Virus genome (UHGV): UHGV-0041830
Reading direction: 5' to 3' (one strand)
Source of the DNA: a virus
DNA length: 15,804 bases
In this document: piece by piece, positions 1,069 through 15,230 of the stretch
Position numbering within the stretch: the stretch's first letter is position 1
Layout of the letters: the number at the start of each line of letters is the position of its first letter
The notes under the pieces: model-generated
Database searches by the model: none
What the model saw: the letters and a program-made list of their open reading frames with translations, nothing else
What the model was told of the DNA's origin: nothing
Translations under genes and position numbers: made by a program

Positions 1069-1078
1069 NNNNNNNNNN
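1069..1078. other. Assembly gap (N10); flanks 835-1068 and 1079-1312 are near-identical 234-bp copies with SNPs
   Basis: Run of 10 n. Sequence after the gap restarts at a point 234 bp before the gap (ttgataccgaaaaggcctttgaatatatcgcc...) with scattered substitutions. Confidence 0.95.
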
Positions 1079-1824
1079 TTGATACCGAAAAGGCCTTTGA
1101 ATATATCGCCGGCGCGCCACAGGAGCAGAAGGATAATCCGCTTATTAATATTCTGGAGAAGTTTTCCAGCTGGTATGACACGAATAACGTGACACTGGGC
1201 GGTGTCAAAATTCCGCACCTTTTCCCTGGTGATGATCTGAAACTACAGACTGCGCAGGATTCAGACAATGGATTTTCTGCGCTTGAACAGGCGCTGCTGC
1301 GGTATATCGCCGCCGGTCTTGGCGTTTCCTACGAACAGTTGTCCCGTGATTACTCGAAGGTCAGTTACTCAAGTGCCCGCGCCTCCGCCAATGAGTCGTG
1401 GCGCTATTTTATGGGGCGGCGAAAATTTATTGCGTCCCGGCTGGCCACGCAGATGTTTTCCTGCTGGCTGGAAGAGGCACTTCTTCGGGGGATTATTCGT
1501 CCGCCACGGGCACGTTTTGATTTTTATCAGGCGCGATCAGCCTGGTCACGGGCAGAGTGGATTGGTGCCGGAAGAATGGCCATTGACGGGCTCAAGGAAG
1601 TCCAGGAATCAGTGATGCGCATTGAGGCCGGACTGAGCACGTATGAGAAAGAGCTGGCGCTGATGGGCGAGGATTATCAGGACATTTTCCGCCAGCAGGT
1701 CAGGGAATCTGCAGAGCGGGAAAAAGCCGGACTCTCACGTCCGGTGTGGATAGCGCAGGCGTATCAGCAGCAGATAGCGGAGAGTCGCAGGCCGGAAGAG
1801 GAGACAACACCACGTGAGACGTAA
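1079..1824 (+). CDS. B: Portal protein gpB, C-terminal part on post-gap segment
   Basis: In-frame continuation of the portal sequence (codon boundary at 1081), stop TAA 1822-1824. The first ~78 codons repeat the last codons before the gap. Confidence 0.9.
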
Positions 1825-3297
1825 TCTTTCACACATTATTGCAGCAGCATTCAATGAACCGCTGCTTCTGGAGCCCGCCTATGCGCGGGTTTTCTTTTGC
1901 GCGCTGGGGCGCGAGATGGGGGCAGCAAGTCTTTCGGTACCACAACAGCAGGTACAGTTTGATGCTCCCGGAATGCTGGCTGAAACGGACGAGTACATGG
2001 CCGGAGGTAAACGACCGGCCCGTGTTTACCGGGTGGTGAACGGTATTGCGGTACTGCCGGTGACCGGCACGCTGGTGCACCGGCTGGGTGGTATGCGGCC
2101 ATTTTCCGGAATGACAGGCTATGACGGCATTGTCGCCTGTCTTCAGCAGGCAATGGCGGATAGCCAGGTGCGGGGCGTACTGCTGGACATTGACAGTCCG
2201 GGCGGGCAGGCCGCCGGCGCGTTTGACTGCGCTGACATGATTTACCGCCTCCGTCAGCAGAAGCCGGTCTGGGCACTGTGCAATGACACGGCCTGTTCTG
2301 CAGCCATGCTGCTGGCGTCGGCCTGCTCCCGACGGCTGGTTACCCAGACATCCCGTATCGGTTCCATTGGCGTGATGATGAGCCATGTCAGCTATGCCGG
2401 TCATCTGGCGCAGGCCGGTGTGGATATCACGCTGATTTACTCAGGGGCGCACAAGGTGGATGGCAATCAGTTTGAAGCGTTGCCGGCAGAGGTTCGCCAG
2501 GACATGCAGCAGCGGATTGATGCGGCGCGCCGGATGTTTGCCGAAAAAGTGGCGATGTATACCGGTCTGTCTGTTGATGCAGTCACGGGAACAGAGGCCG
2601 CTGTTTTTGAAGGTCAGTCCGGCATTGAGGCCGGGCTGGCGGATGAATTAATCAATGCGTCGGATGCCATCAGTGTGATGGCCACGGCGCTGAACAGTAA
2701 TGTCAGAGGAGGCACTATGCCGCAATTAACTGCAACGGAAGCCGCCGTGCAGGAGAACCAGCGAGTGATGGGGATCCTGACATGCCAGGAAGCGAAAGGA
2801 CGTGAACAGCTTGCCACGATGCTGGCAGGACAACAGGGCATGAGCGTTGAACAGGCCCGGGCGATTCTGGCCGCGGCGGCACCGCAGCAGCCGGTGGCAT
2901 CCGCGCAGAGTGAAGCCGATCGCATTATGGCGTGTGAAGAAGCGAACGGTCGTGAACAACTGGCGGCAACGCTGGCGGCGATGCCGGAGATGACGGTGGA
3001 AAAAGCCCGCCCGATCCTGGCGGCTGCACCACTGGCGGATGCCGGGCCCTCGCTTCGTGATCAGATCATGGCCCTGGATGAGGCAAAAGGGGCAGAAGCG
3101 CAGGCTGAAAAACTGGCGGCCTGCCCGGGAATGACCGTGGAGAACGCCCGGGCTGTGCTGGCTGCGGGATCAGGTAAGGCAGAACCGGTCTCTGCATCCA
3201 CAACCGCCATGTTTGAACATTTCATGGCGAACCATTCACCGGCAGCGGTACAGGGTGGCGTGGCACAGACGTCAGCAGACGGTGATGCGGACGTGAA
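1814..3297 (+). CDS. C: Prohead protease/scaffold gpC (ClpP/S49-like serine peptidase family), 3' side cut by N10 gap
   Basis: GTG start at 1814 overlapping the portal stop by 11 nt. N-terminus RRNLSHIIAAAFNEPLLLEPAYARVFFCALG resembles lambda C (MTAELRNLPHIASMAFNEPLMLEPAYARVFFCAL...). C-terminal third carries Nu3-like repeats. Confidence 0.88.
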
Positions 3298-3307
3298 NNN
3301 NNNNNNN
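3298..3307. other. Assembly gap (N10); flanks 2988-3297 and 3308-3617 are ~310-bp near-identical copies
   Basis: Run of 10 n. Post-gap sequence agatgacggtggaaaaagcccgcccgatcctgg... repeats 2988 onward with roughly 8% substitutions. Confidence 0.95.
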
Positions 3308-3639
3308 AGATGACGGTGGAAAAAGCCCGCCCGATCCTGGCTGCTTCACCGCAGGCGGATGCCGGACCATCACTCCGTGATCAGATCATGGCACTGGATG
3401 AGGCAAAAGGGGCTGAGGCGCAGGCTGAACAGCTGGCTGCCTGCCCGGGAATGACAGTGGAGAGCGCCCGGGCTGTGCTGGCTGCGGGATCAGGTAAGGC
3501 CGAACCGGTCTCTGCATCCACAACCGCCCTGTTTGAACATTTCATGGCGAATCATTCACCGGCAGCGGTGCGGGGTGGCGTGTCACAGACGTCAGCAGAC
3601 GGTGATGCGGACGTGAAAATGCTCATGGCCATGCCATGA
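3308..3639 (+). CDS. nu3: 3' end of gpC / Nu3 scaffolding region (post-gap segment, 5'-partial)
   Basis: Codon boundary at 3310, stop TGA 3637-3639. Translation (...LRDQIMALDEAKGAEAQAEQLAACPGMTVESARAVLAAG...ADGDADVKMLMAMP) matches the pre-gap C tail and the lambda C/Nu3 C-terminus. Confidence 0.78.
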
Positions 3640-3675
3640 AGTCAGTGCTGACCATCAATATGAGGTTTTAACAAA

Positions 3676-4023
3676 ATGGTGACGAAAACCATCACTGAAC
3701 AGCGTGCGGAAGTACGTATTTTTGCCGGTAATGATCCGGCTCATACCGCCACAGGCAGCAGCGGGATTTCCTCGCCAACACCGGCACTGACGCCCCTGAT
3801 GCTGGATGAAGCCACCGGGAAACTGGTGGTCTGGGATGGACAGAAAGCCGGTAGTGCGGTTGGCATACTGGTACTGCCGCTTGAAGGCACAGAGACGGTG
3901 CTGACCTATTACAAGTCGGGGACCTTTGCGACGGAGGCAATCCGCTGGCCTGACAGTGTGGATGAACACAAAAAGGCAAATGCCTTTGCCGGCACAGCCC
4001 TGAGTCACGCGGCTCTGCCGTAA
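3676..4023 (+). CDS. D: Head decoration protein gpD
   Basis: 115 aa. GAGG Shine-Dalgarno ~10 nt upstream of ATG. Motifs NDPAHTATG, TPLMLD, KLVVWDG, AVGIL, YKSGTF, KANAFAGTA match lambda D (110 aa). Confidence 0.92.
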   Translation: MVTKTITEQRAEVRIFAGNDPAHTATGSSGISSPTPALTPLMLDEATGKLVVWDGQKAGSAVGILVLPLEGTETVLTYYKSGTFATEAIRWPDSVDEHKKANAFAGTALSHAALP

Positions 4024-4080
4024 CACGTTATCAGGCCACCATGGTGACCTGACTGATTTCTGAATGAAAGGAACTGATTT

Positions 4081-5109
4081 ATGGGATTGTTTACGACCCG
4101 CCAGTTACTCGGTTATACCGAACAAAAAGTTAAATTTCGTGCGCTGTTTCTGGAGCTGTTTTTCCGCCGTACGGTGAATTTCCACACCGAAGAGGTGATG
4201 CTGGACAAAATTACCGGAAAAACGCCGGTGGCGGCCTATGTCTCCCCGATCGTTGAAGGAAAAGTGCTTCGCCATCGCGGTGGTGAAACCCGCGTGTTAC
4301 GTCCGGGCTACGTCAAGCCGAAACACGAATTTAATTACCAGCAGGCGGTTGAGCGCCTTCCTGGTGAAGATCCGGCTCAGCTGAACGACCCGGCCTACCG
4401 TCGTCTGCGTATCATTACCGATAACCTCAAACAGGAAGAGCACGCCATTGTCCAGGTGGAAGAAATGCAGGCGGTGAATGCCGTGCTGTATGGCAAATAC
4501 ACCATGGAAGGGGATCAGTTTGATACTGTCGAGGTGGATTTCGGGCGCTCTGAAGGAAATAACATTGAGCAGGCTGACGGTAAAAAATGGTCTGAGCAGG
4601 ACCGTGATACGTTTGATCCGACGCATGATATTGACCTCTACTGCGATCAGGCCAGCGGCCTTGTGAATATCGCCATTATGGACGGTACGGTCTGGCGTCT
4701 GCTGAATGGCTTTAAGCTGTTCCGCGAAAAACTGGATACCCGTCGCGGCTCAAATTCACAACTCGAAACGGCAGTGAAAGATCTGGGCGCAGTGGTGTCC
4801 TTCAAGGGGTATTACGGCGATCTGGCCATTGTGGTGGCGAAAACGTCTTATGTGGCAGAGGACGGTACCGAAAAACGTTATCTGCCGGAGGGCATGCTGG
4901 TGTTGGGGAATACGGCGGCAGAGGGGATTCGTTGCTATGGTGCCATTAAGGATGCACAGGCGTTGTCTGAAGGAGTGGTGGCTTCTTCCCGTTACCCGAA
5001 ACACTGGCTGACCGTGGGCGATCCGTCCTGTGAATTCACCATGACGCAGTCCGCTCCGCTGATGGTGCTGCCGGATCCGGATGAGTTTGTGGTGGTACAG
5101 GTGAAATAA
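4081..5109 (+). CDS. E: Major capsid protein gpE
   Basis: 342 aa (lambda E 341 aa). AAAGGA RBS. Long identical stretches to lambda E (YVSPIV, PGYVKPKHE, DPAYRR, IVQVEEMQAV, KLDTRRGSNS, LETAVKDLG, TMTQSAPLM, LPDPDEFV). Confidence 0.95.
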   Translation: MGLFTTRQLLGYTEQKVKFRALFLELFFRRTVNFHTEEVMLDKITGKTPVAAYVSPIVEGKVLRHRGGETRVLRPGYVKPKHEFNYQQAVERLPGEDPAQLNDPAYRRLRIITDNLKQEEHAIVQVEEMQAVNAVLYGKYTMEGDQFDTVEVDFGRSEGNNIEQADGKKWSEQDRDTFDPTHDIDLYCDQASGLVNIAIMDGTVWRLLNGFKLFREKLDTRRGSNSQLETAVKDLGAVVSFKGYYGDLAIVVAKTSYVAEDGTEKRYLPEGMLVLGNTAAEGIRCYGAIKDAQALSEGVVASSRYPKHWLTVGDPSCEFTMTQSAPLMVLPDPDEFVVVQVK

Positions 5110-5117
5110 TCCGTGAG

Positions 5118-5146
5118 CGGGGGCGAAATGCCCCCGTGTCTTTTTT
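5118..5146 (+). terminator. Intrinsic-terminator-like hairpin downstream of the major capsid gene
   Basis: Stem CGGGGGC (5118-5124), loop GAAAT, stem GCCCCCG (5130-5136), then TGTC followed by TTTTTT (5141-5146), 9 nt after the E stop codon. Confidence 0.5.
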
Positions 5147-5160
5147 CACAGGAGGCTGAG

Positions 5161-5544
5161 ATGGCAACAAAAGAAGAAAATCTGAATCGTCTTCGTCAAC
5201 TGGCTGACCTGCTGGGGCGCGAGGCGGATATGTCGGGGAGTGCTGCGGATATTGCTCAACGTGTGTCTGAGTGGGAAGAGGAGCTTGCTGTTTCCCCGGA
5301 GGGCATTATGCACTCTGATGAGAGCGGGGCTGATCAAAATCACACAGACGATGGTGAGCAGTTGAACAACACGGATGCTCCGGATGATGTTAAAGCCGTC
5401 CGGGTACGGAAGTGCCTGCAAGTAATGGGGTATTGCCCGGAGACAGGTCGTCCCGTTGAGCTGGCGTTACGGGGTATGCGTGTTCTGGTGCCATCATCAC
5501 TGGCAACGGCCATGATACAGCACGGAACGGCTGAATATGCGTGA
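5161..5544 (+). CDS. FI: DNA packaging / head assembly protein FI
   Basis: ATG at 5161 preceded by AGGAGG. Size and position match lambda FI (132 aa). The ORF-track start at 5113 would read through the terminator hairpin and is not used. Confidence 0.8.
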   Translation: MATKEENLNRLRQLADLLGREADMSGSAADIAQRVSEWEEELAVSPEGIMHSDESGADQNHTDDGEQLNNTDAPDDVKAVRVRKCLQVMGYCPETGRPVELALRGMRVLVPSSLATAMIQHGTAEYA

Positions 5545-5890
5545 TTTTCAGAATGCCTTTGATGCTGCCCTCGCCGGGGTAGACAGTACGATCGTTGAAG
5601 TGATGGGGCTCTGTGCGCAGTTCACCTCGGGGGCACAGTGTGGCAGCGAAGTTCAGGGGGTTTTTGATGATCCGGAGTCGCTGGGGTTTGCCGGTGGCGG
5701 GGTCCGTATTGAAGGAAGCAGCCCGTCATTATTTGTGCGGACGGATACGGTTCGTGCCGTGCGGCGTGGTGACACGCTGACCATTAATGGTGAGATATTC
5801 TGGGTGGATCGTGTTTCTCCGGATGACGGGGGCAGCTGTTATCTCTGGCTCAACCGTGGTCAACCACCCGCAGTTAACCGGCGACGATAA
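5537..5890 (+). CDS. FII: Head-tail connector / head completion protein FII
   Basis: 117 aa, same length as lambda FII. GVFDDPE, GVRIEGSSPSLFVRTD, RRGDTLTI, FWVDRVSPDDGGSC, LWL, PPAVNRRR all match. Start overlaps the FI stop by 8 nt. Confidence 0.92.
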   Translation: MRDFQNAFDAALAGVDSTIVEVMGLCAQFTSGAQCGSEVQGVFDDPESLGFAGGGVRIEGSSPSLFVRTDTVRAVRRGDTLTINGEIFWVDRVSPDDGGSCYLWLNRGQPPAVNRRR

Positions 5891-5905
5891 ACGCAGGGTG
5901 AAATT

Positions 5906-6439
5906 ATGGCGATAAAAGGGCTTGATCAGGCGATTGACAATCTGAGCCGGGTTCGTAAAAACGCCATTCCGGCGGCTTCAGCAATGGCCATTAACCGCGT
6001 GGCCACAACGGCGATTAATCAGTCTTCATCACAGGTTGCCCGGGAGACAAAGGTTCGCCGGAAACTGGTTAAGGAACGGTCCAGACTGAAACGGGCGACG
6101 GTCAGAAATCCGAATGCCAGAATTATCGTTAACCGCGGTGATCTCCCTGTGATTAAGCTGGGGATCAGGATGCTGGGGCGTCGCCCGAACAGCATACTTA
6201 AAGCCGGTCAGCATCGGTATCAGCGGGCATTTATTCAGAGATTAAAAAATGGTCGCTGGCATGTCATGCAGCGTGTGGCCGGGAAAAACCGTTACCCCAT
6301 TGATGTGGTGAAAATCCCGATGGCGGCCCCACTGAAACAGGCATTTGATGAGAATGTTGACCGTATCCGGCGTGAACGCCTGCCTAAAGAACTGGCATAC
6401 GCGCTGAAACAACAACTGAGGATTGCAATAAAACGATGA
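5906..6439 (+). CDS. Z: Tail completion protein Z
   Basis: 177 aa basic protein in the lambda Z position between FII and U. AGGGTG RBS. Stop overlaps the U start (ATGA). Confidence 0.88.
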   Translation: MAIKGLDQAIDNLSRVRKNAIPAASAMAINRVATTAINQSSSQVARETKVRRKLVKERSRLKRATVRNPNARIIVNRGDLPVIKLGIRMLGRRPNSILKAGQHRYQRAFIQRLKNGRWHVMQRVAGKNRYPIDVVKIPMAAPLKQAFDENVDRIRRERLPKELAYALKQQLRIAIKR

Positions 6440-6831
6440 AACACACTGACATTCGTGCCGCAGTGCTGGATGCACTCGAGCAGCATGAACACGGGGCGAC
6501 GCTGTTTGATGGTCGCCCCGTTGTTTTTGACGAAGAGGATTTTCCTGCGATCGCGGTTTATCTGACGGATGCAGAGTATACCGGTGAAGAGCTGGATGCA
6601 GATACCTGGCGGGCCACGCTGCATATTGAGGTGTTTTTACCGGCACAGGTACCGGATTCAGAGCTTGATCAGTGGATGGAAAGCCGGATTTACCCGGCGA
6701 TGACCGCGATCCCGGCACTGGCAGGACTGATTACCACGATGGTTACGCAGGGCTATGAGTATCGTCGTGATGACGATATGGCGTTATGGAGTTCTGCAGA
6801 TCTGACTTATTCCATTACATACGAGATGTGA
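6436..6831 (+). CDS. U: Tail tube terminator protein U
   Basis: 131 aa, same length as lambda U. ATGA overlap with Z, positioned just upstream of V. Confidence 0.9.
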
Positions 6832-6838
6832 GGACGAT

Positions 6839-7591
6839 ATGGCAACACCAAATCCCCTTGAGCCGGTAAAAGGTGCCGGTACCACTCTGTGGGTTTACAA
6901 CGGCAAGGGTGATGCTTATGCAAACCCGTTGTCAGACGATGACTGGCAGCGACTGGCTAAGGTGAAGGATCTGACGCCGGGCGAGATGACGGCAGAATCC
7001 TACGATGATAACTACCTGGATGATGAAGACGCGGACTGGACCGCGACCGGGCAGGGGCAGAAATCTGCAGGTGATACCAGTTTTACGCTGGCCTGGAAAC
7101 CGGGAGAGGAAGGCCAGAAAGGGCTTATAGGCTGGTTTGAAAGCGGCGATGTCCGGGCCTATAAAATCCGTTTTCCGAATGGCACGGTGGATGTGTTTCG
7201 TGGCTGGGTCAGCAGTATCGGTAAGGCCGTGACGGCGAAAGAAGTGATCACCCGCACGGTGAAAGTCACTAACGTGGGTAAACCTTCTGTAGCGGAAGAA
7301 CGCAGCAAAATTACGCCGGTCAGTGCGATTAAGGTGACGCCGACATCCGGTACGGTGGCAAAAGGGAAAACAACCACCCTGACGGTTTCTTTTGAGCCGG
7401 AAAGTGCAACCGACAAGACGTTCAGAGCGGTTTCCGCCGATCCGTCGAAAGCCACCATTAGTGTGAAAGATATGACAATTACGGTAAACGGCGTGGCGAC
7501 AGGTAAGGTGCAGATCCCTGTGGTGAGCGGAAATGGTCAGTTCGCCGCAGTGGCTGAAGTCACCGTTACTGAAGCGGGCGCTGCAGGGTAA
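6839..7591 (+). CDS. V: Major tail tube protein V with C-terminal Ig-like domain
   Basis: 250 aa (lambda V 246 aa). GAGGA RBS. The C-terminal ~90 aa ([38 protein letters not shown]...) has the alternating-residue pattern of a bacterial Ig-like (Big_2) domain, as in lambda gpV. Confidence 0.92.
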
Positions 7592-7604
7592 ACGGAGGTA
7601 ATAC

Positions 7605-8036
7605 ATGTTTCTGAAAACAGAACAATTTGAATATAACGGTGTGTCTGTCACGCTTTCCGAATTGTCTGCGCTGCAGCGTATCGAGCATCTTGCCCTCCTG
7701 AAACGGCGTGCAGAACAGGCAGAATCCTGCGGCAACCTGCAGGTAAGCGTGGAAGATCTCGTCAGAACCGGCGCGTTTCTGGTGGCGATGTCCCTGTGGC
7801 ATAACCATCCACAGAAAACGCAGTCACCGTCAATGAATGAGGCCGTGATGAAGATAGAGCAGGAAGTGCTCACCACCTGGCCTGCCGATGCCATTGCCCG
7901 GGCGGAAGACGTGGTGTTGTGCCTGTCCGGGATGATCGAAGCTGTTCGTCCGGATACTGATATTACTGAAGTGGCGAAAAATAACACGCTGACTGATGAT
8001 GATTTTTCTGCGGGAAAGTCTTCGACGGCGAGCTGA
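7605..8036 (+). CDS. G: Tail assembly chaperone G
   Basis: 143 aa (lambda G 140 aa). GGAGG RBS. The C-terminus contains the slippery heptamer G_GGA_AAG in the zero frame. Confidence 0.9.
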   Translation: MFLKTEQFEYNGVSVTLSELSALQRIEHLALLKRRAEQAESCGNLQVSVEDLVRTGAFLVAMSLWHNHPQKTQSPSMNEAVMKIEQEVLTTWPADAIARAEDVVLCLSGMIEAVRPDTDITEVAKNNTLTDDDFSAGKSSTAS

Positions 8037-8476
8037 ACTTTGCCCTCAGACTGGCGCGTGAGATGGGGAGACCCGACTGGCGCGCCATGCTTGCCGGGAT
8101 GACATCCACCGAATATGCCGACTGGCACCGTTTTTACCGCACGCATTATTTTCAGGATACCCAGCTGGATATGCATTTTTCCGGGCTGACGTACGCTGTA
8201 CTCAGCCTGTTTTTTTGCGATCCGGATATGCATCCCTCTGATTTCAGTCTGCTTGTCCCCCGGCATGAGGAAGAGCAGGTGGAGAGGCCGGATGAGGACA
8301 AAATGCTGATGCAGAAAGCGGCAGGACTTGCCGGAGGCGTCCGGTTCGGTGGGGACGGAGGGCGCGATATTTTATCGTCTGCGGATGTGGCGGATGTCAT
8401 GGTGGATGATGCCGCATTAATGATGGCTTCAGCGGGGATTCCGGGAGGTGTGAGATATGTCCCAGCCGGTTGGTGA
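7605..8476 (+). CDS. T: Tail assembly chaperone G-T fusion made by programmed -1 ribosomal frameshift (join 7605..8018, 8018..8476)
   Basis: Slippery site GGGAAAG at 8012-8018 with GGA and AAG as zero-frame codons. The -1 frame is open from 8018 to TGA at 8474-8476 and encodes KVFDGELNFALRLAREMGRPDWRAMLAGMTSTEYADWHRFY... Same arrangement as lambda G/T. Confidence 0.85.
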
Positions 8477-11030
8477 TCTTGTTATTGACCTGAGTCTGGA
8501 TGCTGTCCGTTTCGATGAGCAGATGAGCCGGGTAAGGCGTCATTTTTCAGGTCTGGATACCGACGCCAGAAAAACCGCCAGTGCTGTTGAACAGGGCCTG
8601 AGCCGCCAGGCGCTGGCTGCACAAAAAGCCGGGATTTCCGTCGGGCAGTATAAAGCGGCCATGCGAACCCTGCCCGCACAGTTTACGGATATCGCCACGC
8701 AGCTTGCCGGTGGTCAGAATCCCTGGTTGATCCTGCTGCAACAGGGCGGTCAGGTGAAGGACTCCTTCGGCGGGATGATCCCCATGTTCAGGGGGCTTGC
8801 CGGTGCGATCACCCTGCCGATGGTCGGGGTCACCTCGCTGGCGGTGGCGACAGGTGCGCTGGCGTACGCCTGGTACCAGGGCGACGCCACGCTTTCAGAA
8901 TTTAATAAAACGCTGGTCCTTTCCGGCAATCAGGCCGGACTGACTGCCGATCGTATGCTGACGCTCTCAAGAGCCGGGCAGGCAGCAGGGCTGACGTTTA
9001 ACCAGGCGAGAGAGTCACTGGCAGCCTTGGTGAATGCCGGTGTGCGTGGTGGTGAACAGTTTGATGCCATCAACCAGAGTGTCGCGCGTTTTGCGTCTGC
9101 ATCCGGTGTGGAGGTGGATAAAGTCGCTGAAGCCTTCGGGAAGCTGACCACTGACCCGACGTCGGGACTGATGGCGATGGCGCGCCAGTTCCGTAACGTG
9201 ACGGCAGAGCAGATTGCGTATGTTGCACAGCTGCAGCGTTCCGGAGACGAGGCCGGGGCATTGCAGGCGGCGAACGATATCGCCACGAAAGGCTTTGATG
9301 AGCAGACCCGTCGCCTGAAAGAAAACATGGGAACACTGGAGACCTGGGCGGATAAAACAGGGAAGGCATTCAAATCGATGTGGGATGCCATTCTGGATAT
9401 CGGTCGTCCGGAATCCTCAGCGGATATGCTCGCCAGTGCGCAGAAGGCATTTGATGAGGCGGATAAAAAATGGCAGTGGTACCAGAGCCGGAGCCAGCGC
9501 CGGGGAAAGACCTCCTCTTTTCGTGCGAACCTTCAGGGGGCATGGGATGACCGGGAAAATGCCCGTCTGGGTCTGGCAGCGGCCACGCTGCAGTCGGATA
9601 TGGAAAAAGCCGGTGAACTGGCGGCAAGGGACAGGGCTGAGCGTGAGTCGTCACAGCTGAAGTATACCGGAGAGGCGCAGAAGGCGTATGAGCGCCTGCA
9701 GACGCCGCTGGATAAATATACCGCCCGTCAGAAAGAGCTGAATAAGGCCCTGAAAGACGGAAAAATCCTGCAGGCGGATTACAACACGCTGATGGCGTCG
9801 GCAAAAAAGGATTATGAATCGACGCTGAAAAAGCCGTCAGGTGTGAAGGTGTCTACCGGTGAGCGCCAGGAAGACCGGGCGCATGCAGCCCTGCTGGCGC
9901 TTGAAACCGAGCTCAGGACGCTGGAAAAACACAGCGGTGTGAATGAGAAAATCAGCCAGCAGCGCCGGGATTTATGGGAAGCGGAAAGTCAGTATGTGGT
10001 CCTGAAAGAGGCCGCCACGAAACGGCAGTTATCTGAGCAGGAAAAATCCCTGCTGGCTCATGAGAAAGAGACGCTGGAGTACAAACGCCAGCTGGCTGAG
10101 CTGGGAGACAAGATTGAACACCAGAAGCGGCTGAATGAGCTGGCACAGCAGGCGGCGCGGTTTGAACAGCAGCAAAGCGCGAAGCAGGCGGCAATCAGCG
10201 CAAAAGCCCGCGGCCTCACCGACCGTCAGGCGCAGCGGGAGTCGGAAGAGCAGCGCCTTCGTGAGGTGTACGGTGATAATCCGGCTGCGCTGGCGAAGGC
10301 CACATCGGCACTGAAGAACACCTGGTCTGCGGAGGAGCAGCTTCGTGGAAGCTGGATGGCCGGGATGAAGTCCGGCTGGGGAGAGTGGGCGGAAAGTGCG
10401 ACGGACAGTTTTTCGCAGGTTAAAAGTGTGGCCACGCAGACCTTTGACGGTATTGCACAGAATATGGCGGCGATGCTGACCGGCAGCGAACAGAACTGGC
10501 GGGGATTCACCCGTTCCGTGCTGTCCATGATGACAGAAATTCTGCTTAAGCAGGCAATGGTGGGGATTGTCGGGAGTATCGGCAGCGCTATTGGCGGGGC
10601 TGTTGGTGGCGGCGCATCCGCGTCAGGCGGTACAGCCATTCAGGCCGCTGCGGCGAAATTCCATTTTGCAACCGGAGGATTTACGGGAACCGGCGGCAAA
10701 TATGAGCCAGCGGGGATTGTTCACCGTGGTGAATTTGTCTTCACAAAGGAGGCAACCAGCCGGATTGGCGTGGGGAATCTCTATCGGCTGATGCGCGGCT
10801 ATGCCACCGGTGGTTATGTCGGTACACCGGGCAGTCTGGCTGACAGCCGGTCGCAGGCGTCCGGGACGTTTGAGCAGAATAACCATGTGGTGATTAACAA
10901 CGACGGCACGAACGGGCAGATAGGTCCGGCTGCTCTGAAGGCGGTGTATGACATGGCCCGCAAGGGTGCCCGTGATGAAATCCAGGCACAGATGCGCGAT
11001 GGTGGTCTGTTCTCCGGAGGTGGACGATGA
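8457..11030 (+). CDS. H: Tail tape measure protein H
   Basis: 857 aa (lambda H 853 aa). Long near-identical runs to lambda H (PVGDLVIDLSLDA, GISVGQYKAAMR, NPWLILLQQGGQVKDSFGGMIPMFRGLAGAITLPMVG, the C-terminal glycine-rich segment GGFTGTGGKYEPAGIVHRGEFVFTKEATSRIGVGNLYRLMRGYATGGYVG). Start overlaps the T-frame end by 20 nt. Confidence 0.95.
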   Translation: MSQPVGDLVIDLSLDAVRFDEQMSRVRRHFSGLDTDARKTASAVEQGLSRQALAAQKAGISVGQYKAAMRTLPAQFTDIATQLAGGQNPWLILLQQGGQVKDSFGGMIPMFRGLAGAITLPMVGVTSLAVATGALAYAWYQGDATLSEFNKTLVLSGNQAGLTADRMLTLSRAGQAAGLTFNQARESLAALVNAGVRGGEQFDAINQSVARFASASGVEVDKVAEAFGKLTTDPTSGLMAMARQFRNVTAEQIAYVAQLQRSGDEAGALQAANDIATKGFDEQTRRLKENMGTLETWADKTGKAFKSMWDAILDIGRPESSADMLASAQKAFDEADKKWQWYQSRSQRRGKTSSFRANLQGAWDDRENARLGLAAATLQSDMEKAGELAARDRAERESSQLKYTGEAQKAYERLQTPLDKYTARQKELNKALKDGKILQADYNTLMASAKKDYESTLKKPSGVKVSTGERQEDRAHAALLALETELRTLEKHSGVNEKISQQRRDLWEAESQYVVLKEAATKRQLSEQEKSLLAHEKETLEYKRQLAELGDKIEHQKRLNELAQQAARFEQQQSAKQAAISAKARGLTDRQAQRESEEQRLREVYGDNPAALAKATSALKNTWSAEEQLRGSWMAGMKSGWGEWAESATDSFSQVKSVATQTFDGIAQNMAAMLTGSEQNWRGFTRSVLSMMTEILLKQAMVGIVGSIGSAIGGAVGGGASASGGTAIQAAAAKFHFATGGFTGTGGKYEPAGIVHRGEFVFTKEATSRIGVGNLYRLMRGYATGGYVGTPGSLADSRSQASGTFEQNNHVVINNDGTNGQIGPAALKAVYDMARKGARDEIQAQMRDGGLFSGGGR

Positions 11031-11040
11031 AAACCTTCCG

Positions 11041-11050
11041 NNNNNNNNNN
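11041..11050. other. Assembly gap (N10); flanks 10948-11040 and 11051-11143 are 93-bp near-identical copies (H 3' end and M start)
   Basis: Run of 10 n. atgacatggcccgcaagggtgcccgtgatgaaat... appears on both sides with a few substitutions. The pre-gap side already contains the H stop and an M start codon (ATG 11027). Confidence 0.95.
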
Positions 11051-14184: not shown

Positions 14185-14194
14185 NNNNNNNNNN
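14185..14194. other. Assembly gap (N10) joining a segment ending in J to a segment beginning inside the K/I overlap
   Basis: Run of 10 n. Post-gap sequence accttcgtgtgaaaacgggggctgaagcc... corresponds to 12894 onward, so this is not a simple overlap: the following segment is an alternative copy of the I-J locus. Confidence 0.95.
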
Positions 14195-15220: not shown

Positions 15221-15230
15221 NNNNNNNNNN
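15221..15230. other. Assembly gap (N10); flanks 15128-15220 and 15231-15323 are 93-bp near-identical copies within J
   Basis: Run of 10 n. cgccgatcacccggaccatcacgtcggcaaacat... is present on both sides with substitutions. Confidence 0.95.

What the first reader, a model, noticed from the sequence alone, without database searches (positions are those of the whole stretch)
8012..8018. Programmed -1 frameshift site GGGAAAG producing the G-T tail chaperone fusion
The heptamer G_GGA_AAG sits 18 nt before the G stop, with GGA and AAG as zero-frame codons. The -1 frame is open from 8018 to 8476 and has no plausible independent start with an RBS. This is the conserved tail-assembly-chaperone frameshift of lambda and most long-tailed phages. 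It sets the G:GT ratio needed for tape-measure-directed tail assembly. It is well established but should be annotated as a join rather than as two genes.
Basis: partly seen in the sequence, partly recalled or inferred. Interest (0 to 1): 0.35.

Follow-up and report, generated by a model that had tools for sequence, protein, structure and literature searches.

The report
Lambda-type G/GT tail chaperone frameshift site
This is the well-known "slippery" site at which a small share of ribosomes shift back one base to make the longer GT tail-assembly chaperone, here in an E. coli lambda-like prophage; it is real but ordinary, and public annotation splits it into two genes.

Summary
GGGAAAG lies at 8012-8018, read as G_GGA_AAG in the gene G frame (7605-8036). 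The -1 frame is open from 8003 to the stop at 8474-8476. G matches the lambda gpG families. The -1 product matches the lambda T families. Both sit between the tail tube gene V and the tape measure gene H. The lambda slip site aligns base for base with this one.

All 15 phage relatives, 50 prophage loci from more than 20 named genera and 80 close viral contigs carry an in-phase A_AAG or A_AAA shift site at the same position. The only ATG that could start T on its own (8063, used by RefSeq) has a poor ribosome-binding site, is Phe in many relatives, and lies downstream of invariant T-frame residues.

The heptamer alone is not statistically unusual. A second in-phase copy inside H (9503) is a dead end and is absent from lambda H. 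The case rests on context and conservation.

A predicted RNA structure begins 7 nt downstream, but covariation and synonymous-site tests do not support it across the family.

Verdict: an orthologue of the lambda G/GT programmed -1 frameshift. It is already known and of low interest.

The parts
7605..8036 (+). Gene G, the tail assembly chaperone and zero-frame product (143 aa)
   Evidence: ORF with a strong SD (GGAGG, -10.9 kcal/mol). PF06894 E=5e-51. TIGR01674 equivalog, 166 bits against a cutoff of 74. 71% aa identity to lambda G.
8012..8018 (+). Slippery heptamer G_GGA_AAG, the -1 shift site
   Evidence: Read directly and in phase. Aligns base for base with lambda GGGAAAG at NC_001416 10109-10115. 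Retained in 80 of 80 close viral contigs. A shift-prone A_AAG or A_AAA is at the same position in all 15 phage and 50 genome loci.
8018..8476 (+). T segment, read in the -1 frame after the slip (152 aa plus stop). Predicted GT = join(7605..8018, 8018..8476), 290 aa
   Evidence: PF06223. TIGR01715 equivalog, 212 bits, with the profile starting at T-part residue 5. PHROG 32165 positions 140-290 of 290. 74% aa identity to lambda T.
7994..8002 (+). Three consecutive -1-frame stops (TGA TGA TGA) that close the T frame 9 nt upstream of the heptamer
   Evidence: Translation of the -1 frame. The G/T overlap is therefore only 8003-8036 (34 nt).
8034..8036 (+). Zero-frame stop codon of G (TGA)
8063..8065 (+). 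Internal ATG (Met16 of the T part) used as the 'T' start in RefSeq and GenBank; probably not a real initiation codon
   Evidence: RefSeq WP_000533402.1 starts here. Weak SD at the wrong spacing. The codon is TTC (Phe) in many relatives. Invariant T-frame residues lie upstream of it.
8026..8096 (+). Predicted mRNA structure: an outer stem 8026-8033/8089-8096 enclosing a hairpin 8052-8087. It is a possible frameshift stimulator, but this is unproven
   Evidence: MFE -40.5 kcal/mol, z=-3.27. Recovered by RNAalifold in 11 sequences but not in 42. The measures that count covarying pairs and pair types are not significant. No synonymous-site suppression over the hairpin.
6839..7591 (+). Gene V, the major tail tube protein (upstream context)
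   Evidence: PF16461 E=2e-69 plus Big_2.
8457..11030 (+). Gene H, the tape measure protein (downstream context). Its start overlaps the end of T by 20 nt
   Evidence: PF06791 and PF09718. Strong SD, -14.1 kcal/mol.

Best explanation
This is the G/GT recoding site of a lambda-like prophage tail module from an Escherichia genome. Most ribosomes translate G in frame and stop at 8034-8036, giving the 143-aa chaperone gpG. A minority pause with tRNA-Gly on GGA and tRNA-Lys on AAG, slip back one base to GGG AAA, and continue in the -1 frame from 8018 (GTC, Val). They stop at 8474-8476 and give a 290-aa GT fusion (G residues 1-138 plus 152 T residues). By homology with lambda, many copies of gpG and about one gpGT coat the tape measure protein H. 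The T domain recruits the tube protein V, and neither chaperone ends up in the virion. The fixed slip frequency sets their ratio. Shown here: the sequence anatomy, the homology of both parts, the synteny, the exact alignment with the lambda site, the conservation of a shift site at this position across the family, and the lack of a credible separate start for T. Inferred by homology: that shifting actually occurs here, its efficiency (about 4% in lambda), and the chaperone mechanism.
For: Anatomy and phase. Families: PF06894, PF06223, TTP and TMP; TIGR01674 and TIGR01715 equivalogs; PHROG 32165, a 290-position fusion profile that matches G on 1-142 and the T part on 140-290. Gene order V-G-T-H in a RefSeq copy whose G-T stretch (872 nt) is 100% identical. 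Alignment with lambda: TTTCTGCGGGAAAGT is invariant although the 60 nt upstream are diverged. Of six nucleotide differences from lambda in 8019-8062, four are synonymous in the T frame (read). Family-wide conservation: a shift site sits at the same position in 15 phages as GGGAAAG, AAAAAAG or GGAAAAG. Phage LLS carries an explicit '-1 programmed translational frameshift site GGAAAAG' feature and a joined CDS there. The same holds for 50 prophage loci from Escherichia, Trabulsiella, Enterobacter, Citrobacter, Kluyvera, Klebsiella, Rahnella, Morganella, Proteus, Providencia, Pantoea, Oceanimonas and others; the G stop follows 3-18 nt later in 49 of them and the -1 frame opens 12-72 nt upstream, the exception being the disrupted Shigella copy L138. 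All 80 close relatives keep GGGAAAG. No separate start. No promoter-like or terminator-like site in 7400-8600. Literature: lambda GGGAAAG, about 96% zero frame, G:GT about 30:1, G part binds H, T binds V, wide conservation of G-T frameshifting (PMC5009743, PMC3296357, PMC7618472).
Against: There is no direct expression evidence for this element. The heptamer alone occurs at chance frequency in the window, and another in-phase copy exists in H. The window is a draft scaffold with N runs and duplicated ends, so whether this particular prophage is intact and inducible is unknown. The G-T region itself lies in one uninterrupted segment (3308-11040) that is 99.6% identical to a finished genome.
Confidence: 0.95

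Rival explanations
1. G and T are two independently translated genes, as annotated in RefSeq and GenBank. T would start at ATG 8063 and give a 137-aa protein, and the heptamer would be incidental.
For: RefSeq (WP_000533402.1) and several phage records annotate T this way. That 137-aa sequence is on at least 1000 contigs in public annotation. Some genuine genes in the window also have weak SDs, from -4.6 to -6.9 kcal/mol.
Against: The SD-like match at 8063 is weak (-5.3) and abuts the ATG. The codon is Phe in phi80, HK225, mEp213, LLS, Kp4865-4, cdtI and most genome loci. Invariant T-frame residues E5, F8, A13, R14 and E15 precede it. The TIGR01715 profile starts at T-part residue 5. The T frame opens only 9 nt before the heptamer. 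In lambda, T is made only as the GT fusion (literature).
Confidence: 0.03
2. The longer product arises from transcriptional slippage: RNA polymerase would drop one A in the run and make a -1 mRNA, rather than the ribosome slipping.
For: Some relatives have longer A runs at the site, such as AAAAAAG and AAAAAAA, where polymerase slippage is conceivable. Transcriptional slippage is used in analogous length-ruler systems (PMC5009743).
Against: Here the run is only AAA. From general knowledge, that is far below the 7-9 identical bases usually needed. The lambda site with the same heptamer depends on tRNA-Lys anticodon modification, which is a ribosomal property (PMC3296357).
Confidence: 0.01
3. 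The signal is intact but idle: the locus is a defective prophage remnant whose tail genes are not expressed, so the site has no current function in this genome.
For: The window is a scaffold with five N10 joins, and its last 1.6 kb is a patchwork of duplicated I/J-region pieces at 95-97% identity. The state of the tail fibre region therefore cannot be judged.
Against: All ORFs from D to I inside uninterrupted segments are intact. The G-T stretch is 100% identical in many finished E. coli genomes and at least 99% identical in 854 records. The V-T stretch (6839-8476) is 92-98% identical in phage genome records (PhiR12 and PhiR5 series, Stx1a phages).
Confidence: 0.05

Closest known systems
Bacteriophage lambda G / G-T programmed -1 frameshift (NC_001416: G 9711-10133, slip GGGAAAG 10109-10115, T frame to 10549)
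   Same: Identical heptamer in the same phase. The same 18 nt run to the end of the G stop. The flanking TTTCTGC...GT is identical. G is 71% and T 74% identical in amino acids. The gene order V-G-T-H is the same. T carries the same C-terminal extension with a second GGVRY motif.
   Different: The codon after the slip is GTC here and GTG in lambda, so the pseudo-start that lambda's annotation uses for T does not exist here. G has a 4-residue insertion and a diverged acidic C-terminal segment. The -1 frame opens 9 nt before the site, against 39 nt in lambda. T is 8 residues longer and overlaps H by 20 nt rather than 8.
N15 / phi80 / HK225 / cdtI-type G-T sites (G_GAA_AAG)
   Same: Homologous G and T proteins, the shift site at the same alignment position, and an invariant A_AAG for the tRNA-Lys slip. 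LLS (PQ299149) annotates it as a -1 PRF with a joined CDS.
   Different: Their first triplet is not X_XX (GAA to GGA re-pairing is imperfect), so slipping there relies mainly on the A-site tRNA-Lys. The window has the full tandem-slip heptamer. Their T lacks the C-terminal extension of about 35 residues.
E. coli dnaX and IS3-family -1 frameshift signals (A_AAA_AAG plus stimulators)
   Same: A -1 tandem slip ending in A_AAG, decoded by the single E. coli tRNA-Lys (PMC5009743).
   Different: Those signals use an upstream SD-like element and/or a downstream hairpin or pseudoknot and reach high efficiency. Here no SD-like element precedes the site (read). A downstream structure is only predicted and is not supported by covariation. 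Lambda-type efficiency is low, about 4%.

Membership tests
Lambda-type tail assembly chaperone pair G/GT with conserved -1 frameshift | Two overlapping ORFs lying between the major tail (tube) gene and the tape measure gene | tested here: met
   V 6839-7591, G 7605-8036, T frame 8003-8476, H 8457-11030. The order is the same in a RefSeq copy.
Lambda-type tail assembly chaperone pair G/GT with conserved -1 frameshift | The upstream ORF is homologous to lambda gpG | tested here: met
   PF06894 E=5e-51. TIGR01674 equivalog, 166 bits against a cutoff of 74.45. 71% identity to lambda G.
Lambda-type tail assembly chaperone pair G/GT with conserved -1 frameshift | The downstream ORF is in the -1 frame and homologous to lambda T | tested here: met
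   Frame checked. PF06223. TIGR01715 equivalog, 212 bits against a cutoff of 77.35. 74% identity to lambda T.
Lambda-type tail assembly chaperone pair G/GT with conserved -1 frameshift | An in-phase slippery sequence (X_XXY_YYZ, or at least Y_YYZ) inside the overlap, shortly before the zero-frame stop | tested here: met
   G_GGA_AAG at 8012-8018, 15 nt before the TGA, inside the 34-nt overlap.
Lambda-type tail assembly chaperone pair G/GT with conserved -1 frameshift | The shift site is conserved at the homologous position in relatives although the flanks diverge | tested here: met
   15 of 15 phage loci, 50 of 50 genome loci and 80 of 80 close viral contigs. The control heptamer in H is not conserved.
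Lambda-type tail assembly chaperone pair G/GT with conserved -1 frameshift | The downstream part has no initiation of its own | tested here: met
   Sequence-level test only. There is no start codon between 8003 and 8062. ATG 8063 has a poor SD, is not conserved, and has invariant residues upstream. No promoter-like site was found.
Lambda-type tail assembly chaperone pair G/GT with conserved -1 frameshift | A GT fusion protein is actually produced at a low, fixed fraction of G (about 3-4% in lambda) | not testable with these tools
   This needs a protein-level or reporter assay. The lambda value comes from the literature.
Lambda-type tail assembly chaperone pair G/GT with conserved -1 frameshift | The G domain binds the tape measure protein, the T domain binds the tube protein, and both are absent from virions | not testable with these tools
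   Known for lambda (PMC5009743). No solved structure is related by sequence.
-1 frameshift signals with a 3' stimulatory RNA structure (dnaX / IS3 / viral type) | A stable structure 5-9 nt downstream of the slip site, maintained by compensatory changes | tested here: inconclusive
   A stem starts 7 nt downstream, z=-3.27. It is kept in 11 sequences, with pair 22-90 as GC/AU/CG. In 42 sequences RNAalifold does not recover it. Pairs with a change on both sides and further pair types are not significant, at 91/500 and 215/500 shuffles. Synonymous variation over the hairpin is like the rest of the gene. 21 of 42 homologues have z below -2.
-1 frameshift signals with a 5' SD-like stimulator (dnaX type) | A GGAGG-like element about 10 nt upstream of the slip site | tested here: not met
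   The upstream sequence is GATGATGATTTTTCTGC, with no SD-like run.
Transcriptional slippage recoding | A homopolymer run long enough for RNA polymerase slippage (about 7-9 or more) | tested here: not met
   The run is only A3, flanked by G3.

The most novel reading that the evidence does not exclude
In the lambda / N15 / phi80-like enterobacterial subgroup, an mRNA structure may tune the G:GT ratio. It starts 7 nt after the slip site (window 8026-8033 pairing with 8089-8096, enclosing the GC-rich hairpin 8052-8087). That would run against my unverified recollection that the lambda G-T shift needs no downstream structure. The element is thermodynamically unusual here (z about -3.2). It folds well in about half of 42 homologues and shows one GC/AU/CG compensatory pair. 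It fails family-wide covariation and synonymous-constraint tests, and it coincides with strongly conserved codons (LAREMGRPDWRA).
Probability: 0.12. Interest if true: 0.3.

Novelty: already known. Interest (0 to 1): 0.1.

Why it matters
As biology it adds nothing new. It is an orthologue of one of the first and best-studied programmed frameshifts, and the G-T stretch is present at 99% identity or more in 854 complete E. coli genome records. Its practical value is for annotation. RefSeq and GenBank list a 143-aa G and a truncated 137-aa 'T' that starts at a non-conserved internal ATG. The true 290-aa GT product is missing from a 15-billion-protein collection. Annotating join(7605..8018, 8018..8476) would restore 15 conserved N-terminal T-domain residues and the physical link between the G and T domains, on which the chaperone mechanism depends.

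Tried and rejected
1. Statistical enrichment of the heptamer in the window: rejected as evidence, with 3 found against 2.35 expected.
2. The other two GGGAAAG copies: 12250 is out of phase. 9503 is in phase within H, but its -1 frame ends after 13 codons and lambda H has no GGGAAAG. Both are chance occurrences.
3. A downstream stimulatory structure: followed through single-sequence folding, an 11-sequence alignment, a 42-sequence alignment, per-sequence z-scores and a crude synonymous-rate scan. The result is suggestive in a subgroup but not supported family-wide.
4. An Rfam search of 7800-8300 at a permissive E-value found only noise, all matches E of 2 or more.
5. A promoter and terminator scan of 7400-8600 found nothing.
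6. A PDB sequence search with the 290-aa fusion found no relative.
7. The first viral-contig scan with G returned only 98-100% identical copies, which were useless for divergence tests but confirmed retention of the site.
8. I tried to read Xu et al. 2013 (PMC3762263) to check what is known about downstream elements, but it is not held. My recollection that Levin et al. 1993 found no required downstream secondary structure is therefore unverified.

Full report
**1. The observation**

The + strand reads ...GATTTTTCTGC GGGAAAG TCTTCGACGGCGAGCTGA..., with GGGAAAG at 8012-8018.
- The ORF 7605-8036 (143 aa) has GGA at 8013-8015 and AAG at 8016-8018 as codons 137-138. It ends at TGA 8034-8036.
- In the -1 frame, three consecutive stops (TGA TGA TGA, 7994-8002) are followed by an open frame from 8003 to the stop at 8474-8476.
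- The predicted fusion has 138 + 152 = 290 residues.

Two small corrections apply. The -1 frame opens at 8003, not 8018. "18 nt before the stop" counts to the last base of the stop codon.

The heptamer alone is not more than chance. There are three copies in the window against 2.35 expected. The copy at 9503 inside the tape measure gene is also in the X_XXY_YYZ phase. Its -1 frame ends after 13 codons, and lambda H has no GGGAAAG. The significance therefore has to come from context and conservation.

**2. What the two frames encode, and where**

- The zero-frame product matches Pfam PF06894 (lambda tail assembly chaperone G, E=5e-51) and the NCBIfam equivalog TIGR01674 (166 bits, cutoff 74).
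- The -1 product matches PF06223 (minor tail protein T) and the equivalog TIGR01715 (212 bits, cutoff 77).
- Upstream is the tube protein V (PF16461 plus Big_2). Downstream is the tape measure protein H (PF06791, PF09718). This V-G-T-H order is the lambda order.
- A RefSeq copy whose G-T stretch is 100% identical (E. coli ATCC 11775) shows the same order within a full lambda-like head-tail module.
- PHROG 32165 has a 290-position profile, the length of the predicted fusion. It matches G on positions 1-142 and the -1 part (residues 2-152) on positions 140-290. This places the junction at K138|V139.

**3. Comparison with lambda**

- The V-to-T stretch (6839-8476) is about 77% identical to lambda in DNA. 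G is 71% and T 74% identical in amino acids.
- The lambda slip site (NC_001416 10109-10115) aligns base for base with 8012-8018.
- TTTCTGCGGGAAAGT is invariant between the two, although the 60 nt upstream, which encode the C-terminal tail of G, are heavily diverged and differ by an indel.
- Of six nucleotide differences in 8019-8062, four are synonymous in the T frame (read).
- Lambda has GTG right after the slip, which its annotation uses as a nominal T start. The window has GTC, so not even a nominal start codon exists there.

**4. Conservation across the family**

- In 15 phage genomes with G proteins 28-99% identical to this one, the same alignment position always holds a shift-prone sequence in phase:
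  - GGGAAAG in lambda, YDC107_1, PhiR12 and Stx2a phages.
  - AAAAAAG in Stx1_8100 and Stx2_95.
  - GGAAAAG in HK225, mEp213, phi80, LLS, Klebsiella Kp4865-4, cdtI, mEp460 and Providencia PSTCR8lys.
- Phage LLS explicitly annotates this as a "minus-one programmed translational frameshift site GGAAAAG" with a joined CDS.
- I scanned one genome per species with a T alignment and analysed 50 of the loci returned. They come from Escherichia, Trabulsiella, Enterobacter, Citrobacter, Kluyvera, Pluralibacter, Rahnella, Serratia, Kosakonia, Klebsiella, Morganella, Proteus, Providencia, Ewingella, Pantoea, Oceanimonas and others.
  - All 50 have an in-phase A_AAG or A_AAA at the predicted position. The variants also include AGAAAAG, GGTAAAG, GGCAAAA, GGGAAAA and AAAAAAA.
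  - In 49 of them the G stop follows 3-18 nt later, and in all 50 the -1 frame opens 12-72 nt upstream. The exception is the disrupted Shigella copy L138.
- All 80 close viral contigs keep GGGAAAG.
- This is strong comparative evidence that the site is a selected feature.

**5. Can T start on its own?**

- The T frame has no ATG, GTG or TTG between 8003 and 8062. The first is ATG 8063.
- Its best pairing with the anti-SD is -5.3 kcal/mol and abuts the start codon. The values are -10.9 for G and -14.1 for H. Some other genes in the window are also weak.
- That Met is Phe in most relatives.
- The invariant T-frame residues E5, F8, A13, R14 and E15 lie upstream of it, and the TIGR01715 profile begins at residue 5.
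- No promoter-like or terminator-like site is found in 7400-8600.
- Independent initiation is therefore very unlikely.
- Even so, RefSeq (WP_000533402.1) and several phage records annotate exactly that 137-aa ORF.
- The exact 290-aa fusion is absent from a collection of 15 billion proteins, while the separate G and 137-aa T sequences are each on at least 1000 contigs.

**6. Mechanism**

By homology with lambda (literature read here: PMC5009743, PMC3296357, PMC7618472):
- About 96% of ribosomes stay in frame and make gpG.
- About 4% slip -1 on G_GGA_AAG, with tRNA-Gly and the single E. coli tRNA-Lys (mnm5s2UUU) re-pairing on GGG AAA. These make gpGT.
- The resulting ratio of about 30:1 is needed for tail assembly.
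- The G parts bind the tape measure protein and the T domain recruits the tube protein. Neither is in the virion.
- G_GGA_AAG is listed among the highly shift-prone heptamers in E. coli.

These functional steps are inferred for this element, not shown.

**7. Possible stimulators**

- No SD-like element lies upstream.
- Downstream, 8019-8110 folds to -40.5 kcal/mol (z=-3.27). An outer stem, 8026-8033/8089-8096, starts 7 nt after the site and encloses a GC-rich hairpin at 8052-8087.
- In an 11-sequence alignment RNAalifold finds the same stems, and one pair varies as GC/AU/CG.
- With 42 non-redundant sequences the case weakens:
  - The consensus fold is lost.
  - The counts of covarying pairs and pair types are within the range of shuffles, although cells paired and the covariation score exceed them. 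The tool warns that related sequences can produce that result without any structure.
  - Half of the homologues fold no better than shuffles.
  - Synonymous variation over the hairpin codons (0.52-0.55) equals that of the rest of T. Only the first 10 or so codons are slightly lower (0.38-0.40), and these partly overlap G.
- The hairpin coincides with the most conserved peptide (LAREMGRPDWRA) and with a palindromic GGCGCGCC.
- I treat the structure as an unproven possibility.
- No Rfam family matches.
- My recollection that the original lambda study found no required downstream structure could not be checked, because that paper is not held.

**8. Rivals**

- Independent initiation of T: see section 5.
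- Transcriptional slippage: the run is only A3.
- An idle signal in a defective prophage: this cannot be excluded for this particular copy, but the module is intact where it is contiguous, and phage genome records (PhiR12 and PhiR5 series, Stx1a phages) are 92-98% identical over the V-T stretch.

**9. Verdict**

The finding is real and correctly interpreted. It is an orthologue of the lambda G/GT programmed -1 frameshift, so it is already known. Interest is low (0.1). The only practical consequence is a correction of annotation: join(7605..8018, 8018..8476).

**10. State of the window**

The window is a scaffolded draft. Five runs of exactly 10 N (1069-1078, 3298-3307, 11041-11050, 14185-14194, 15221-15230) join pieces whose ends repeat 93-310 nt of each other. 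The last 1.6 kb is a patchwork of I/J-region pieces. ORFs that cross these joins are artefacts. The G-T region lies inside one uninterrupted piece (3308-11040).

Noticed in passing
window 1069-1078, 3298-3307, 11041-11050, 14185-14194, 15221-15230: Five runs of exactly 10 N. At the first three joins the sequence after the gap repeats what precedes it (about 234, 310 and 93 nt relative to E. coli ATCC 11775). After 14184 the window is a patchwork of I/J-region pieces at 95-97% identity. The window is a concatenated draft scaffold. ORFs crossing the joins (15-1082, 1024-1824, 1814-3313, the apparent H-M gap, the fragmented J) are assembly artefacts, not biology.
   Followed up: partly
window 9503-9509 (inside tape measure gene H): A second GGGAAAG sits in the same X_XXY_YYZ phase. 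A -1 slip here would end after 13 codons (DLLFSCEPSGGMG*). Lambda H has no GGGAAAG at all. It is probably a chance site that costs a small fraction of truncated H.
   Followed up: yes
window 8063-8476; RefSeq NZ_CP033092.2 2699004-2699417 (WP_000533402.1): Public annotation starts 'phage tail assembly protein T' at an internal, non-conserved ATG. That drops 15 conserved T-domain residues and the link to G. The exact 290-aa GT fusion is absent from a 15-billion-protein collection, while the split products are each on at least 1000 contigs.
   Followed up: yes
window 8026-8096: A predicted stable mRNA structure begins 7 nt after the slip site (z=-3.27). It is kept in close relatives with one GC/AU/CG pair, but it is not supported by a 42-sequence covariation test or by synonymous-rate tests.
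   Followed up: yes
window 8315-8341 and 8438-8461 (T residues about 100-108 and 141-148): In this element, lambda and Stx1_8100, T carries a C-terminal extension of about 35 residues that ends in a second copy of the G-[LI]-x-GGVR-[FY] motif. In phi80, N15-like, cdtI and Providencia relatives the protein ends right after the first copy. This looks like a duplication of the C-terminal motif, and its function is unknown.
   Followed up: no
loci L098-L104, L106-L111, L133 (also L112, L128, L139 at 99.6-99.9%): Contigs 100% identical to phage lambda over the V-G-T-H region occur in genome assemblies of unrelated organisms (Neobacillus, Oceanobacillus, Kitasatospora, Chromatium, Shewanella, Leeuwenhoekiella, Enterococcus, Paenibacillus, Pseudomonas, Tardiphaga and others). 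Where the contig name records coverage, it is mostly around 1x. This is almost certainly lambda DNA contamination from the laboratory or a sequencing control, not prophages.
   Followed up: partly
loci L113-L165 (slip position 'pe'): The commonest shift site in this protein family is not the lambda heptamer but G_GAA_AAG (GGAAAAG), which is not a canonical X_XXY_YYZ. Rarer variants are A_GAA_AAG, G_GTA_AAG, G_GCA_AAA, G_GGA_AAA and A_AAA_AAA. Only the A_AAR tetranucleotide is universal, which suggests that the A-site tRNA-Lys slip is the essential part.
   Followed up: partly
L138 (Shigella flexneri CP182557.1, 4204826-4207184): This is a lambda-like G-T copy, 92% identical to lambda. GGGAAAG is kept, but both frames are disrupted nearby: the T frame stops after 9 codons. 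It is a decayed prophage copy.
   Followed up: no
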